Shown one piece after another: positions 39,286 through 49,843 of a DNA stretch of 64,000 nucleotides. Position 1 is the first letter of the stretch, and each line of letters begins with the position of its first letter. Source of the DNA: Candidatus Hydrogenedentota bacterium. GTDB taxonomy: Bacteria > Hydrogenedentota > Hydrogenedentia > Hydrogenedentales > SLHB01. The notes under the pieces are model-generated. The model was not told where the DNA came from. It worked only from the letters and a program-made list of their open reading frames with translations, and made no database searches. The stretch covers positions 1 through 64,000 of the forward strand of contig BTVY01000031.1 of NCBI GenBank assembly GCA_045863335.1, read 5' to 3'. The translations under genes and the position numbers were made by a program.

Positions 39286-39361
39286 TGGAGCTGGATCGGG
39301 GAGTCGAACCCCGGACCTCATCATTACGAGTGATGCGCTCTACCAACTGAGCTAATCCAGC
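39286..39361 (-). tRNA. tRNA-Thr(CGT)
   Basis: GCTGGATTAGCTCAGTTGGTAGAGC...CATCA-CTCGTAA-TGATG...GGTTCGACTCC...CCA; 76 nt. Confidence 0.97.
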
Positions 39362-39369
39362 AAGAAAAA

Positions 39370-39445
<76 letters not shown>

Positions 39446-39457
39446 ACGTGTCGCAAA

Positions 39458-39487
39458 AGCATACGAAATGAAGTCCCACGAAGTCAA
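39458..39487 (-). promoter_or_regulatory. Promoter of tRNA-Phe/tRNA-Thr
   Basis: TTGACT-18 nt-TATGCT just upstream of tRNA-Phe. Confidence 0.6.
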
Positions 39488-39504
39488 GTTGGCACAGGCT
39501 GCCA

Positions 39505-40431
39505 TTACTCGATTCCCGCCCGCCGGTCGGCGAAAACGCCCCCCTCCGAAGAGGTCATCGCCATATGGCGAATTTGGGACAGCACTTCAAAGATCTGTTG
39601 GGGCGTGACCGTTTCCTTGGGATCGTGTTGCGTAATGCAGAACATCACGTCCAACTGTTTTTCCGCCTCGTCGGCGGACGTTTTCGGCTTCGGGCTTCCC
39701 GTCGTCGCCATATACAACTTTTCAATCTGGGCCAGCCAAACCTTGCGCGCCCAGCGGCTGAACGCCTGGATGCGTTTGGGCGACATGATTACCATGAAGT
39801 GACCACCGCCCATGTGGCCCACGAAGATTTCTTCATCCTTGAGTTCTTCGGTGCACCGGGCAAGCGCTCGCCCCAAATGCCGCACCGCCTTGGTCCGGGC
39901 TTCCGCGCCGTACTTCCGGCCAAACTCCCGCACATACAGCAACTCGCAATGCGCCAGCGCAAACCCCTTGCGTAAACTGATCTGCCGTTGGATCTCCCGC
40001 TTCGTGGCGTCCGCCGAAGGGAGCGAAGTGAGTTCGTCCACTCCTGTGCCGCCGGAGCCAATCCGCAGCAGCGCCTCGATCCGTTGCAGTACGTTCCCCG
40101 CGTCGAACGGCTTGGCGACGTAATCGTCCGCGCCTTGCGCCAGTCCGTGGAACACCTCTTCTTCGTTGTTCATCGCGGAAAGGAACAAAATCGGAAGGGT
40201 GTACAGCTCCGGGTCGCGCCGAATCTGACGGCAAATTTCGAAACCGGATGTGTGCGGGAGCATGACGTCCAGCACGAGCAAGTCATGCTTCTTGTTCTGG
40301 ATCGTCTCCAAGACGTTCTGACCGGAGCGTTGGACGGTGCACTCGTGGCCGCTCTTGACCAAGTGATCCCGAACCAACTGGCTGGCCCGTTCGTCGTCGT
40401 CTACGATCAGGATCGTCGCCACCCGCTGCAC
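39505..40431 (-). CDS. Response regulator with receiver domain and degenerate GGDEF-like domain
   Basis: ILIVDDD, LVLDVMLP, ADDYVAKPF; DELTSLP, FGRKYG, GHMGGGHF in place of GGD/EEF. Confidence 0.85.
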   Translation of the reverse strand: MQRVATILIVDDDERASQLVRDHLVKSGHECTVQRSGQNVLETIQNKKHDLLVLDVMLPHTSGFEICRQIRRDPELYTLPILFLSAMNNEEEVFHGLAQGADDYVAKPFDAGNVLQRIEALLRIGSGGTGVDELTSLPSADATKREIQRQISLRKGFALAHCELLYVREFGRKYGAEARTKAVRHLGRALARCTEELKDEEIFVGHMGGGHFMVIMSPKRIQAFSRWARKVWLAQIEKLYMATTGSPKPKTSADEAEKQLDVMFCITQHDPKETVTPQQIFEVLSQIRHMAMTSSEGGVFADRRAGIE

Positions 40432-40464
40432 CTCTCTCCGGTGGGAAGGTTCCGGCTGGTTTCA

Positions 40465-40550
40465 TGGTGGGCGAGGAGGGACTCGAACCCTCAAGCCCGT
40501 TGGGGCAGCGGATTTTAAGTCCGCCGTGTATGCCATTCCACCACTCGCCC
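40465..40550 (-). tRNA. tRNA-Leu(TAA)
   Basis: GGGCGAGTGGTGGAATGGCATACAC..GCGGA-CTTAAAA-TCCGC, long variable arm, GGTTCGAGTCC, CCA; 86 nt. Confidence 0.97.
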
Positions 40551-40641
40551 AAAAGCGCGAACCAACAACACCATGGCCGCACGTGATTTGGGCAATCCGA
40601 CCGATTCACCCGCGCCACGCGGTGGTAGTTAAAAATCAATA

Positions 40642-40717
40642 TGGAGGCGGCACCCGGACTCGAACCGGGGAATGGAGGCTTTGCAGGCCTCTGCCTTACC
40701 AACTTGGCTATGCCGCC
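40642..40717 (-). tRNA. tRNA-Cys(GCA)
   Basis: GGCGGCATAGCCAAGTTGGTAAGGC.GAGGC-CTGCAAA-GCCTC...GGTTCGAGTCC...CCA. Confidence 0.97.
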
Positions 40718-48752: not shown

Positions 48753-48884
48753 TTCAGACTACCCGTAGTTTTCTTTCCGGCGCAGAGCATGGCGAATCAG
48801 AATGATGCCGGAAACGCGACGCGATCAGGAAAACATCACGAAATTTTCCTTTGCGAATCCGGTGCGCATAGGGTAAGGTATATT

Positions 48885-49130
48885 CAGTGAGACACGTGGC
48901 GGCGAAGGCACTCGATGGGGAGTGGCCGGGATACGTCAGCGGCGTCGGAAAGGAGGTGGTCCATCTATGAGTAGTCCGAGTACGATTCCTGACGCCATAG
49001 TTGGACATGCCCTAGGTATGACCAAAATGGAGATTCTTGTCAAGGAGATCCGTTCGTAACTGTGGCGTTAGGAGCTACAGAGGACTGTATCTAACACGGG
49101 GCGGCGTCCAGCAGGATGCCGCCCCGCGTT
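48885..49130 (+). ncRNA. Candidate structured small RNA / sORF-containing transcript
   Basis: Promoter-like TTGCGA-17-TAAGGT (48851-48879); 16-bp stem 48987-49002/49058-49073 with two G-U pairs enclosing two hairpins; closing 13-bp hairpin 49097-49126. Confidence 0.55.
48967..49059 (+). CDS. 30-aa small ORF MSSPSTIPDAIVGHALGMTKMEILVKEIRS
   Basis: Preceded by the extended SD AAAGGAGGTGGTCCA (48949-48963). Confidence 0.45.
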   Translation: MSSPSTIPDAIVGHALGMTKMEILVKEIRS

Positions 49131-49134
49131 CCTT
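49097..49134 (+). terminator. GC-rich hairpin closing the candidate RNA
   Basis: CGGGGCGGCGTCC-AGCA-GGATGCCGCCCCG then CGTTCCTT (weak U tract). Confidence 0.55.
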
Positions 49135-49156
49135 ATCTCGCGGGAGGGGACTTGCG

Positions 49157-49843
49157 ATGGGGAATGGGGAGCGAACCTACCGGATTCGCCGGGCCATGGC
49201 GCGGCCCGGTCTGGACGGCGACTGGGACAGCGAGGTCTGGTCGCACGCGGACACGGCGCACATCAACCTATTCCGGCCGGAAGGCAGCAATCATCACCCC
49301 GATACCCGGGTCAAGCTGCTCTACGACGACGAAGGCCTCTATCTGATTTTCCGCGTATACGACCAATTCGTGCAATGCCTCGCCACCGAATATCAAGGGC
49401 ACGTCTACGAAGACGCCTGCGTCGAGTTCTTCGTCCAACCCCGGCGCGACGCCGGATACTTCAACTTCGAAATGAACTGCGGCGGGGTACTGCTGCTTAA
49501 GTACATCGAGGACGCCCGGCGCACCGAGACCGGCTTCGAGAAGTTCGTTAATGTGCCATCCGAATTAGGTTCCGAAGTCGTCGCCTTTCATTCCCTGAAC
49601 GCCCCGATCGAGGAAGAGATCGTAGACCCCGTCGAATGGCGCGTCGAGTACTCCATCCCCTTCAGCCTTTTCGAGCATTACGTCGGCCCCTTGGGAAACG
49701 TTTCCGGCCAGACCTGGCGCGGCAACTTCTACAAATGCGCCGACGGCAGTTCCCATCCCCACTGGGCCTCCTGGGCCCCCATAGGCCGCGAACTCAACTT
49801 CCATGTCCCGGAGCATTTCGCCACGCTTCGCTTCGACCCGTAA
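49157..49843 (+). CDS. Carbohydrate-binding family 9-like (DOMON-like) protein
   Basis: GGGAGG SD; LDGDWD..VW, VKLLYDDEGLY, VYEDACVEFF, YFNFEMNCGG, WRGNFYKC, NFHVPEHF. Confidence 0.85.
   Translation: MGNGERTYRIRRAMARPGLDGDWDSEVWSHADTAHINLFRPEGSNHHPDTRVKLLYDDEGLYLIFRVYDQFVQCLATEYQGHVYEDACVEFFVQPRRDAGYFNFEMNCGGVLLLKYIEDARRTETGFEKFVNVPSELGSEVVAFHSLNAPIEEEIVDPVEWRVEYSIPFSLFEHYVGPLGNVSGQTWRGNFYKCADGSSHPHWASWAPIGRELNFHVPEHFATLRFDP

What the first reader, a model, noticed from the sequence alone, without database searches (positions are those of the whole stretch)
48851..49134. Structured ~240-nt RNA with a 15-nt match to the 16S rRNA 3' end and a 30-aa ORF folded into a long stem
Seen: a promoter-like TTGCGA-17-TAAGGT, a hairpin-containing 5' region (e.g. 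CACTC/GAGTG), then AAAGGAGGTGGTCCA (48949-48963) and an ATG at 48967 opening a 30-aa ORF. Most of the ORF is enclosed by a 16-bp stem (TCCTGACGCCATAGTT 48987-49002 with AACTGTGGCGTTAGGA 49058-49073). Its only two non-Watson-Crick positions are G-U pairs on the + strand, which favours selection on RNA structure over a DNA palindrome. Two internal hairpins give a three-way junction; TACAG/CTGTA and a 13-bp closing hairpin follow. Established: the usual bacterial 16S 3' end is ...UGGAUCACCUCCUUU. The motif pairs with it over 15 nt (one G-U), extending past the anti-SD toward helix 45, far longer than ordinary SDs. Inference: a stand-alone RNA that captures or stalls 30S subunits (ribosome sponge/hibernation-type RNA), or a dual-function sRNA/peptide gene. 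This organism's own 16S sequence is not in the window.
Basis: partly seen in the sequence, partly recalled or inferred. Interest (0 to 1): 0.78.

Follow-up and report, generated by a model that had tools for sequence, protein, structure and literature searches.

The report
Ribosome-docking small RNA with perfect Shine-Dalgarno
This is a real, conserved and apparently expressed stand-alone small RNA of the uncultured phylum Hydrogenedentota that can pair with the whole free 3' tail of 16S rRNA and carries a short reading frame, much like the poorly understood rreB small mRNAs of alphaproteobacteria.

Summary
Window 48886-49134 (+) is a stand-alone ~245-nt RNA. It has a promoter, a three-helix 5' domain, a 15-nt complement of the 16S 3' tail (one G-U), an ATG, a 30-codon ORF inside covarying stems, and a terminator.

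A covariance model finds one copy in 69 of 135 Hydrogenedentota genomes. A related RNA occurs in 39 of 121 sampled genomes of a Pirellulales-labelled order.

The 15-nt motif varies only by transitions that keep pairing with ...UGGAUCACCUCCUUU. The ORF frame stays open (median 35.5 codons, against 11 and 4.5 in the other frames). The peptide is hardly constrained: substitutions by codon position are 125:137:158.

A second SD-like motif lies 10-18 nt before the stop in 48 of 56 homologues. Short metatranscriptome contigs from three studies cover only this element.

Rfam has no family for it; the only hit is weak, to CC2171. The closest known kind is rreB/rreR (Hahn et al. 2016). Those are small mRNAs with a 16-17-nt 16S complement that bind 30S, are weakly translated, and have no known function.

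Verdict: a new, more elaborate variant of that kind in new phyla. A sponge or hibernation role is untested.

The parts
48851..48879 (+). Promoter-like site: -35 TTGCGA (48851-48856), 17-nt spacer, -10 TAAGGT (48874-48879). Predicted start of transcription is about 48886.
   Evidence: Sequence. It is below the consensus scan threshold. The best -35/-10 match sits at the same distance in 40 of 55 homologues. An RNA-library contig starts at 48888.
48891..48946 (+). 5' domain of three nested helices. P1 is about 48891-48896 with 48940-48946. P2 is 48897-48901 with 48934-48938. P3 is 48907-48913 with 48920-48927. A conserved internal loop, GCGAA / GGGATA, lies between P2 and P3 and is kink-turn-like.
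   Evidence: MFE. Covariation on MAFFT alignment A1 of 52 homologues: 76.6% of cells paired against 64.0% shuffled and 33-46% slid; 175 double-change cells against 79; P3 has 7 of 7 pairs compensatory. Loop pairs: column 22/56 is G.A 29, A.G 15, C-G 7; column 25/53 is A.G 51 of 52.
48949..48963 (+). AAAGGAGGTGGTCCA, a 15-nt complement (one G-U) of the 16S rRNA 3' tail UGGAUCACCUCCUUU, in the linker between the two folded domains.
   Evidence: Across 57 distinct homologues it varies only by A/G opposite U and C/U opposite G, while the flanks vary freely.
48967..49059 (+). Short ORF: ATG 48967, 30 codons, TAA 49057-49059 (MSSPSTIPDAIVGHALGMTKMEILVKEIRS).
   Evidence: A start codon is present in 56 of 56 homologues (55 ATG, 1 GTG). 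The frame is open far longer than the other two frames. The peptide is not constrained. It has been called as 'hypothetical protein' in a few assemblies.
48972..48977 (+). P4 5' strand TAGTCC, pairing with GGACTG 49082-49087. It closes the 3' domain.
   Evidence: MFE. 78% of cells are paired in 22 homologues, but most pairs are invariant, so covariation does not prove it.
48987..49002 (+).
   Evidence: 11 of 16 pairs have changes on both sides in 22 homologues.
49002..49054 (+). Two inner hairpins, 49002-49024 and 49026-49054. With P5 they form a three-way junction. They vary in sequence and length among homologues.
   Evidence: MFE; individual folds of homologues.
49042..49051 (+). Second SD-like motif AAGGAGATCC. 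Its GGAG begins 13 nt before the stop codon. In the MFE it is paired with TTCTT 49034-49038.
   Evidence: GGAG/GAGG starts 10-18 nt before the stop in 48 of 56 homologues: 79 motif starts in that 9-nt bin against 16 or fewer in any other 9-nt bin.
49058..49073 (+). P5 3' strand, AACTGTGGCGTTAGGA.
49082..49087 (+). P4 3' strand, GGACTG.
49097..49134 (+). Intrinsic terminator: 13-bp G+C-rich hairpin 49097-49126, then CGTTCCTT.
   Evidence: A strong terminal hairpin (-22 to -40 kcal/mol) is present in all 29 full-length homologues of the first set. RNA-library contigs end at 49130 and 49136.

Best explanation
This is an independently transcribed, single-copy small RNA of about 245 nt (240-335 nt in relatives). 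I read it as a ribosome-docking small mRNA of the rreB type.

Proposed mechanism:
1. The RNA folds into a three-helix 5' domain and a multi-helix 3' domain.
2. Between the two domains lies a 15-nt stretch that can pair with the entire single-stranded 3' tail of 16S rRNA, so a 30S subunit docks unusually tightly.
3. An AUG follows three nucleotides later, and a short frame is read through the folded 3' domain.
4. Near the stop codon, a second Shine-Dalgarno-like motif sits at start-like spacing, so the terminating ribosome could pair again.

What selection keeps is the RNA architecture, the tail complement, the open frame and its length. It does not keep the peptide sequence. The functional product is therefore most likely the RNA-ribosome engagement itself. 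The ribosome would control the RNA's folding or turnover, or the RNA would report on or modulate free 30S subunits. A small protein is a less likely product.

Shown here: architecture, conservation, covariation, complementarity, open frame, and presence in RNA libraries. Inferred: 30S binding, translation, the role of the second motif, and any physiological role.
For: Stand-alone unit:
- The promoter position is conserved in 40 of 55 homologues.
- A terminator is present in 29 of 29.
- No neighbour is conserved beyond the genus.
- There is one copy in the window genome, and one match per genome in 68 of the 69 genomes with a match (G027 has two).

Structure: covariation supports P1-P3 and the 16-bp stem. 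The + strand folds far better than the - strand.

16S pairing:
- 15 of 15 positions pair with the tail of five relatives' 16S.
- It is the longest such site of 14,325 GGAGG sites in the genome.
- No other part of 16S is complementary.
- All variation in 57 sequences is wobble-compatible.
- The genome does use SD sequences: GGAG peaks at -14 to -10 before starts.

Translation:
- 56 of 56 homologues have a start codon at fixed spacing.
- Median first stop is 35.5 codons in frame 0, against 11 and 4.5 in the other frames.
- The ORF is exactly 27 codons in 12 short-type sequences with very different peptides.

Peptide unconstrained: differences by codon position are 125:137:158, and dN/dS is mostly 0.3 to above 1.

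Second SD: present in 48 of 56, and also in the Pirellulales-labelled relatives.

Expression hint: contigs in three metatranscriptome runs from three studies cover 48901-49130, 48888-49036 and 48944-49136, with no cover of the flanks.

Precedent: rreB binds 30S, is weakly translated, and its start codon shortens its half-life (PMC5711450, Results and Discussion read).
Against: - No binding, translation or transcript-end experiment exists for this RNA.
- The RNA-library evidence consists of assembled contigs, which cannot show ends, strand or level. A fourth RNA run (X3) covers the flanks too and is uninformative.
- The window genome's own 16S tail is not assembled.
- The homologues are related, so the open frame and motif counts overstate independent support.
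- The predicted unpaired probability of the SD stretch is only about 0.35-0.75, so it is not clearly exposed.
- GGAG lies at -15 from the ATG, at the far edge of the genome's usual spacing.
- The RNA was not found in 66 of 135 genomes of the phylum, including 0 of 23 and 0 of 10 in two families. It is therefore dispensable or replaced there.
- One subclade shows dN/dS of about 0.1-0.5, so some peptide constraint cannot be excluded.
Confidence: 0.55

Rival explanations
1. Ribosome sponge or hibernation-type RNA. An abundant RNA titrates or parks 30S subunits through the 15-nt duplex and so lowers global translation.
For: The 15-nt complement is conserved with wobble-only variation. Two SD-like sites occur per RNA. 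Metatranscriptome contigs cover only this element, one at depth 20.5. rreB is found mainly with 30S (PMC5711450, Results read).
Against: Abundance relative to ribosomes is unknown, and contig depth is not a measure of expression. For rreB, 20-fold overproduction gave no growth effect, and ribosomes far outnumber the RNA (PMC5711450, Discussion read). An open, length-conserved ORF is not needed for a pure sponge. The RNA was not found in about half of the phylum's genomes.
Confidence: 0.12
2. An ordinary gene for a small protein with a very strong ribosome-binding site. On this reading the RNA structure only stabilises the mRNA.
For: A start codon is present in 56 of 56 homologues, and the frame is kept open. 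Gene callers have called the 30-aa product. RreB and RreR peptides are conserved within their clades (PMC5711450, Results read). In the Pirellulales-labelled relatives the 10-11-aa peptide MCS.NQRWL[AV] is conserved.
Against: In Hydrogenedentota the peptide length ranges from 23 to 44 aa, and the sequence is barely alignable beyond M-x-S-P. Substitutions are spread evenly over codon positions (125:137:158). Within the window's genus dS = 0 while dN > 0. The best-conserved part is the untranslated 5' domain plus the SD. The conserved codons coincide with covarying helix strands.
Confidence: 0.15
3. A protein-titrating sRNA, for example for CsrA. Its several GGA motifs, including the two SD-like sites, would sequester a translational repressor.
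For: GGA motifs average 9.05 per RNA against 6.36 in shuffles. CsrA is encoded in 104 of 135 genomes of the phylum, and by my reading of the two tables in 65 of the 69 genomes that have the RNA. The family that almost lacks CsrA (1 of 23) also lacks the RNA (0 of 23).
Against: The GGA enrichment is modest. One family has CsrA in 8 of 10 genomes and the RNA in 0 of 10. One 100%-complete genome (G011) has the RNA but no CsrA hit. CsrA binding does not explain 15 conserved nucleotides matching the 16S tail, a fixed start codon, or an open frame. Related genomes are not independent.
Confidence: 0.06
4. A cis-acting leader (leader-peptide attenuator or riboswitch) for the gene that starts at 49157, about 25 nt after the terminator.
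For: The order is promoter, leader ORF, alternative hairpins, terminator, then a same-strand gene with its own SD. That downstream gene is conserved in 7 loci.
Against: Those 7 loci all lie in or next to the window's genus. Elsewhere the flanking genes and their orientation differ. The peptide has no run of a regulatory amino acid. RNA-library contigs stop at the terminator.
Confidence: 0.03

Closest known systems
rreB / rreR small mRNAs of Alphaproteobacteria (Hahn et al., RNA Biol 2016, PMC5711450; abstract, Results and Discussion read; supplements not seen)
   Same: Both are stand-alone small transcripts with their own promoter and terminator. Both have an exceptionally long complement of the 16S rRNA 3' end directly before a very short ORF. 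Both are conserved within a lineage, have no conserved neighbourhood outside close relatives, and have a predicted conserved secondary structure. Function is unknown in both.
   Different: - No sequence similarity, and other phyla.
- 245-335 nt rather than 165 nt.
- A 60-nt three-helix 5' domain precedes the motif here, whereas rreB has only 8 nt before it.
- 15 nt with one G-U, rather than 16-17 perfect pairs.
- ATG 3-5 nt after the complement, rather than a GTG whose first base belongs to it.
- ORF of 23-44 codons with an unconstrained peptide, rather than 14 or 18 conserved codons.
- The ORF is buried in long covarying stems.
- A second SD-like motif precedes the stop. Whether rreB has one was not checked.
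Rfam RF01867 CC2171 (Caulobacter sRNA, function unknown)
   Same: It is the only Rfam hit. The family consensus starts with GAAAGGAGGUGAUCCAGUG and ends in a terminator, with a long stem in between. By my inference, CC2171 is the Caulobacter representative of the rre kind. Its expression was shown by Northern blot in Methylorubrum (bioRxiv 10.1101/2022.01.24.477521, passages read).
   Different: The score is 23.8 bits against a gathering score of 75. The match rests on the SD stretch and the terminator only; the middle of the model is replaced by insertions. It is not a member.
rpsU (bS21) mRNA of Flavobacterium johnsoniae, the one gene with a strong SD (PMC13000453; search listing and start of abstract only)
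   Same: One exceptional SD in a genome is used as a read-out of the state of the 16S anti-SD tail.
   Different: That case is a normal protein gene in a lineage whose ribosomes ignore SD sequences. Here SD sequences are in general use, and the ORF encodes no recognisable protein.
Dual-function sRNAs and leader peptides (SgrS/SgrT, RNAIII/hld, trpL; recalled, not tested)
   Same: A structured small RNA that also carries a translated short ORF.
   Different: Those have ordinary SD sequences and either a conserved peptide or a defined base-pairing target. No target-pairing region is evident here.

Membership tests
rre-type extended-SD small mRNA (rreB/rreR, PMC5711450) | Small stand-alone transcript with its own promoter and terminator | tested here: met
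   RNA-library contigs are confined to the element (a weak hint only).
rre-type extended-SD small mRNA (rreB/rreR, PMC5711450) | [quoted passage not shown] | tested here: not met
   15 contiguous pairs including one G-U in the window. Of 57 distinct homologues, 9 have A at the wobble position. The sequence after CCA is usually T, so 16 pairs are rare.
rre-type extended-SD small mRNA (rreB/rreR, PMC5711450) | Last base of the complement is the first base of a GTG start codon | tested here: not met
   ATG lies 3-5 nt downstream in 55 of 56 homologues, and GTG in 1 of 56.
rre-type extended-SD small mRNA (rreB/rreR, PMC5711450) | Very short ORF (14 or 18 codons) with a peptide conserved in the clade | tested here: not met
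   23-44 codons in Hydrogenedentota, with an unconstrained peptide. The Pirellulales-labelled relatives, with a conserved 10-11 codon ORF, come closer.
rre-type extended-SD small mRNA (rreB/rreR, PMC5711450) | Strong association with 30S subunits, weak translation, start-codon-dependent decay | not testable with these tools
   Needs gradients, reporter fusions and half-life measurements.
Rfam RF01867 CC2171 | Covariance-model score at or above the gathering score (75 bits) | tested here: not met
   23.8 bits, E = 0.0048 on 551 bases. Nothing at the locus in gathering mode.
Leader-peptide transcription attenuator | Conserved downstream operon on the same strand, and regulatory codons in the leader ORF | tested here: not met
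   Neighbours are not conserved beyond the genus. The peptides have no codon runs.
CsrA/RsmA-titrating sRNA (CsrB/RsmZ kind) | Many GGA motifs in loops, and co-occurrence with csrA | tested here: inconclusive
   GGA averages 9.05 against 6.36 expected. The phyletic overlap is partial.
Type I toxin mRNA | Short hydrophobic peptide and a cis or nearby antisense RNA | tested here: not met
   The peptides are hydrophilic and variable. No antisense promoter was found. The - strand folds poorly.

The most novel reading that the evidence does not exclude
A widespread but unrecognised class of ribosome-associated RNAs. It is found here in Hydrogenedentota and in a Pirellulales-labelled order, and is analogous to alphaproteobacterial rre/CC2171.

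On this reading the RNA cradles a ribosome between two anti-SD pairing sites. One site is a full-length complement of the 16S tail at the start codon. The other sits at the same spacing before the stop codon. A kink-turn-like 5' domain would act as a sensor or protein-binding module.

The RNA would thereby sense or set the pool of free, correctly matured 30S subunits, for example by checking or protecting the 16S 3' end or by parking subunits in starvation. The ORF would serve only as a track.
Probability: 0.2. Interest if true: 0.85.

Novelty: new variant of a known kind. Interest (0 to 1): 0.62.

Why it matters
Small mRNAs whose SD pairs with the whole 16S tail have so far been described only in Alphaproteobacteria, and their function is still open.

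This work finds a structurally richer counterpart, in single copy, in about half of an uncultured phylum. A related RNA occurs in many genomes of an order whose records are labelled Pirellulales. This suggests that the arrangement is either ancient or repeatedly invented, and therefore useful.

Several features give concrete, testable handles on what these RNAs do at the ribosome:
- wobble-only variation in the tail complement;
- an open frame of conserved length with an unconstrained peptide;
- a second SD-like motif at start-like spacing before the stop;
- a kink-turn-like 5' domain.

If cultured Pirellulales carry the RNA, experiments become possible that cannot be done in Hydrogenedentota.

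Tried and rejected
- **Rfam.** Gathering mode on the whole window gave only four tRNAs. E-value mode on seven Pirellulales-labelled loci gave only a chance IRES_Bip hit elsewhere in one locus.
- **RNAalifold.** On raw MAFFT alignments of all types it found almost nothing, because the two subtypes and the variable inserts misalign. I set helices by hand and tested them with the count of structure pairs instead.
- **Conserved neighbour.** A 12-locus cluster of flanking ORFs turned out to be response-regulator receiver domains in varying positions, so it is not synteny.
- **Stop codon in a hairpin loop.** By eye, the stop lies in the loop of a GTTGCC...GGCAAC hairpin in many long-type homologues, and of a GCTCG...CGAGC hairpin in the Pirellulales-labelled ones. 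Global MFE folds place it in a hairpin loop in only 6 of 56. I do not claim it.
- **Other complementarity to 16S.** Only G-U-rich 9-12-mers were found.
- **Exact-pattern search in families without the RNA.** Most AAAGGAGGTGATCC hits are the 16S gene ends themselves, read on the other strand. Of the nine non-16S places fetched, the five from genomes of those families (L140-L143, L146) read like coding sequence, and none looks like this element. So the RNA is 'not found' there, not 'absent'.
- **RNA run X3.** It covers the whole 901-base stretch and says nothing about transcript limits.
- **NCBI record titles.** 10 of the 50 pattern hits are titled Nitrospirales or Nitrospiraceae and one Bathyarchaeia. 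Six of those ten, and the Bathyarchaeia one, are identical to loci of genomes that the genome search places in the window's own order. I therefore treat these titles as unreliable.
- **Tool closures.** Supplements of PMC5711450 (extended alignments, Fig. S1-S12) could not be seen. They may show whether rre RNAs have a second SD-like motif.
- **Literature.** Searches for a Hydrogenedentota or Planctomycete version and for later work on rreB/rreR found nothing relevant in the held library.
Full report
**1. The observation**

- TTGCGA-17-TAAGGT is at 48851-48879.
- The CACTC/GAGTG hairpin is present.
- AAAGGAGGTGGTCCA is at 48949-48963.
- ATG is at 48967 and opens 30 codons up to TAA 49057-49059.
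- The 16-bp stem is 48987-49002 with 49058-49073. Its two non-Watson-Crick positions are G-U only on the + strand.

The + strand of 48885-49134 folds to -113.2 kcal/mol, with z = -5.69 against 200 shuffles and none as good. The - strand gives z = -2.82. The consensus scan finds the terminator at 49097-49126 but no promoter, because TAAGGT matches only 3 of 6 positions.

**2. The 16S partner**

The window's genome (G000, 105 contigs) holds only 16S positions 9-707, at a contig end. No 3' end is assembled. A same-genus genome and four other relatives all end ...GCGGCTGGATCACCTCCTTT. Against that tail the motif makes 15 contiguous pairs with one G-U. Among 14,325 GGAGG sites in the genome it is the only one with 15 contiguous pairs when G-U is allowed. 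No other part of the RNA is meaningfully complementary to 16S. The complement ends exactly at the mature 3' end.

The genome uses SD sequences normally. GGAG peaks at -14 to -10 before crude gene starts, and the element's GGAG is at -15.

**3. Relatives**

A DNA search found the element in 40 of 61 related genomes. The best-conserved part is the 5' region, the motif and the first codons.

A pattern scan of one genome per species gave 50 loci.
- 34 are titled Hydrogenedentota, Hydrogenedentes, Hydrogenedentales or Hydrogenedens.
- 10 are titled Nitrospirales or Nitrospiraceae.
- One is titled Bathyarchaeia.
- The remaining five carry other titles.

Six of the ten Nitrospirales/Nitrospiraceae loci, and the Bathyarchaeia one, are identical to loci of genomes placed in the window's own order. 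I therefore read those titles as mislabels and the organism as Hydrogenedentota.

After removing duplicates I had 56 distinct full elements. A covariance model of the 5' half (R1) hits 69 of 135 genomes held for the phylum, and 48 of 86 high-quality ones. There is one hit per genome, except two in G027, and all have E <= 2e-11. Hits by family are 41/53, 11/14, 4/4, 4/15, 3/6, 2/2 and three at 1/1. Two families give 0/23 and 0/10.

**4. Stand-alone unit**

- All 29 full-length copies of the first set end in a strong hairpin.
- The best promoter-like match lies 65-77 nt upstream of the motif in 40 of 55. Many are much closer to consensus than the window's own.
- Flanking genes are conserved only within or next to the window's genus (7 loci). 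The one larger cluster was receiver domains in changing positions.

Three metatranscriptome runs from three studies hold short contigs confined to the element. They cover 48901-49095 plus 49066-49130 (depth 20.5; the first is preceded by what I recall as Illumina adapter sequence), 48888-49036, and 48944-49136 from a close relative. None covers the flanks. Contigs cannot prove ends or strand, so this is a hint of expression, not proof. A fourth RNA run covers everything and is uninformative.

**5. Structure**

On a structure-blind MAFFT alignment of 52 copies (A1), three nested helices plus a 4-bp mini-hairpin are 76.6% paired. Shuffled controls give 64.0% and slid controls 33-46%. There are 175 double-change cells against 79 (0 of 500 shuffles reach this). 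P3 is compensatory at all 7 pairs.

The loop between P2 and P3 has near-invariant A.G (51 of 52) next to G.A (37 of 52). The next-but-one pair switches among G.A (29), A.G (15) and C-G (7). Tandem sheared G.A pairs beside a short bulge are what I recall as the signature of a kink-turn. This is an inference.

The closing helix TAGTCC/GGACTG is kept but hardly varies. The local TACAG/CTGTA hairpin is not used in the MFE.

There are two subtypes. The short type includes the window. The long type has an extra CCGGG-loop-CCCGG hairpin and further stems.

**6. The motif as a pairing site**

In 57 distinct model-aligned sequences, ten of the 15 motif positions are invariant. The other five vary only as follows: A/G (54/3), A/G (56/1), G/A (48/9), C/T (44/13) and A/G (42/15). 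Every variant is A or G opposite a U of the tail, or C or U opposite a G. There are no transversions. The columns just outside the motif vary freely.

Most rows come from model or BLAST searches, but some come from a pattern that fixed 12 of these positions, so the invariance is partly built in. The wobble-only pattern at the free positions is not built in.

**7. The ORF**

All 56 copies have a start codon 3-5 nt after the motif (55 ATG, 1 GTG), with ORFs of 10-44 codons. The first stop lies at a median of 35.5 codons in frame 0, against 11 and 4.5 in the other frames. Twelve short-type copies from several lineages have exactly 27 codons, with very different peptides.

Yet in 31 pairs of equal length, differences fall 125:137:158 on codon positions 1, 2 and 3. 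dN/dS is mostly 0.3 to above 1. Within the window's genus all changes are non-synonymous. One subclade shows 0.1-0.5. The conserved codons are those lying in covarying helix strands.

I conclude that the frame and its length are selected, and that the peptide is hardly selected. The 30-aa product has been called 'hypothetical protein' in a few assemblies. Four other peptides I looked up are not on record.

**8. A second SD-like motif**

GGAG or GAGG begins 10-18 nt before the stop codon in 48 of 56 copies. That 9-nt bin holds 79 motif starts, against at most 16 in any other 9-nt bin. Most exceptions have GGGGG(TG) there.

In the window it is AAGGAGATCC at 49042-49051, 13 nt before TAA. The spacing equals that of SD to start codons in this genome. 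A ribosome at the stop codon could therefore pair its anti-SD again. This is my inference.

**9. A second phylum**

Three pattern hits titled Pirellulales or Planctomycetaceae score only 25-33 bits with R1. Their genomes nevertheless carry a related element. A DNA search in the order of one of them hit 39 of 121 sampled genomes, one copy each. The features below are seen in 15 of the 16 loci fetched.
- AAGGAGGTG[GA]TC.
- ATGTGTAG....
- A 10-11-codon ORF, MCS.NQRWL[AV].
- AGAGGTGG 13 nt before a TAG, TGA or TAA stop codon, which by eye sits in the loop of a small hairpin.
- A long-range GGTGGC/GCCACC stem.
- A terminator.

Three of these genomes have the same 16S tail. Rfam has nothing for them.

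**10. What is known**

Rfam gives only a sub-threshold hit to CC2171: 23.8 bits against a gathering score of 75. The match rests on GAAAGGAGGUGAUCCA and the terminator. CC2171 is an alphaproteobacterial sRNA of unknown function that was seen on Northern blots (bioRxiv 10.1101/2022.01.24.477521, passages read; PMC5596092, table passage read).

The closest described kind is rreB (PMC5711450; abstract, Results and Discussion read).
- It is a 165-nt mRNA of Bradyrhizobiaceae.
- It has 17 nt complementary to the 16S 3' end, including the G of a GTG start.
- It has a 14-codon ORF.
- It is found mainly with 30S subunits and is weakly translated.
- It is stabilised when the start codon is removed.
- It gives no growth phenotype on overproduction.
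- Analogues with 16-17 nt complements occur in four alphaproteobacterial orders, including rreR with 18 codons.

That paper does not mention CC2171 or any other phylum. The CC2171 consensus has the rre hallmark: a 16-nt complement ending in the G of GUG. I infer that CC2171 is the Caulobacter representative of the rre kind.

The window's RNA fails three of the sequence-level hallmarks of rre. It has fewer than 16 perfect pairs, its ATG is set apart from the complement, and its ORF is longer and unconstrained. It also shares no sequence with rre. I file it as working like an rre RNA, not as a member.

**11. Mechanism and rivals**

Most likely (0.55) it is a ribosome-docking small mRNA whose engagement with the ribosome is itself the point. 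The 30S docks through the full tail duplex. A short frame is read through the folded domain. The ribosome re-pairs at the stop. The RNA's folding or decay, or the state of the subunit, is set by this cycle.

Rivals:
- A pure sponge or hibernation role (0.12) is not supported by the rreB precedent and does not need an ORF.
- A plain small-protein gene (0.15) fits the open frame but not the substitution pattern.
- A CsrA-type titrator (0.06) fits a modest GGA excess (9.05 against 6.36) and a partial phyletic overlap. It does not explain the 15-nt conservation.
- A cis leader (0.03) fails on synteny.

**12. Verdict**

The feature is real, conserved and probably expressed. It is a new and more elaborate variant, in new phyla, of a known but functionally unexplained kind. 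Interest is 0.62.

Noticed in passing
L121-L135 (genomes G135-G137 and others; for example L121 around 1450-1712 on the - strand): A related extended-SD small RNA occurs in an order whose records are titled Pirellulales or Planctomycetaceae. It was found in 39 of 121 sampled genomes, one copy each. It has a conserved 10-11-codon ORF (MCS.NQRWL[AV]), an AGAGGTGG motif 13 nt before the stop, and no Rfam family.
   Followed up: partly
L145 (G134:C548) and L148 (G036:C84): A second, different ~300-nt element begins AAAGGAGGTGGTCCGATAGA.GTG... and ends in a terminator. It occurs in two genomes of one Hydrogenedentota genus; one of the two (G036) also has the main RNA. It is possibly a paralogous extended-SD RNA.
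   Followed up: no
window 48902-48906 and 48928-48933 (alignment A1 columns 22-26 and 51-56): The internal loop between P2 and P3 has tandem A.G / G.A pairs (51 of 52 and 37 of 52). A neighbouring pair switches among G.A, A.G and C-G (29/15/7). This is kink-turn-like and could be a protein-binding or tertiary-folding module.
   Followed up: partly
L039-L088 (record titles): Several public MAG records that carry this RNA are titled Nitrospirales, Nitrospiraceae or Bathyarchaeia. Six of the ten Nitrospir* loci, and the Bathyarchaeia one, are identical in sequence to loci of genomes placed in the window's own order. These look like taxonomic mislabels in the records.
   Followed up: partly
window 39289-40717, - strand: Four tRNA genes lie in two pairs: 39289-39361 and 39373-39445, then 40468-40550 and 40645-40717.
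   Followed up: no
G000 contig C39, 69671-70397: The genome's only detected 16S rRNA gene is cut off at a contig end after position ~707. The organism's own anti-SD tail therefore had to be taken from a same-genus genome.
   Followed up: yes
phylum-wide: The family that lacks the RNA (0 of 23) also almost lacks csrA (1 of 23). Another family has csrA (8 of 10) but no RNA (0 of 10). This is lineage-level co-variation of uncertain meaning.
   Followed up: partly
window 48960-48972: In most relatives, TCCA of the motif and TGGA (the start codon's TG plus the next two bases) can form a 4-bp mini-hairpin. It is 88.5% paired in 52 copies, with changes on one side only. In the window (ATGAGT) one of its four pairs is lost. 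It could occlude the start codon until the 16S tail pairs.
   Followed up: partly
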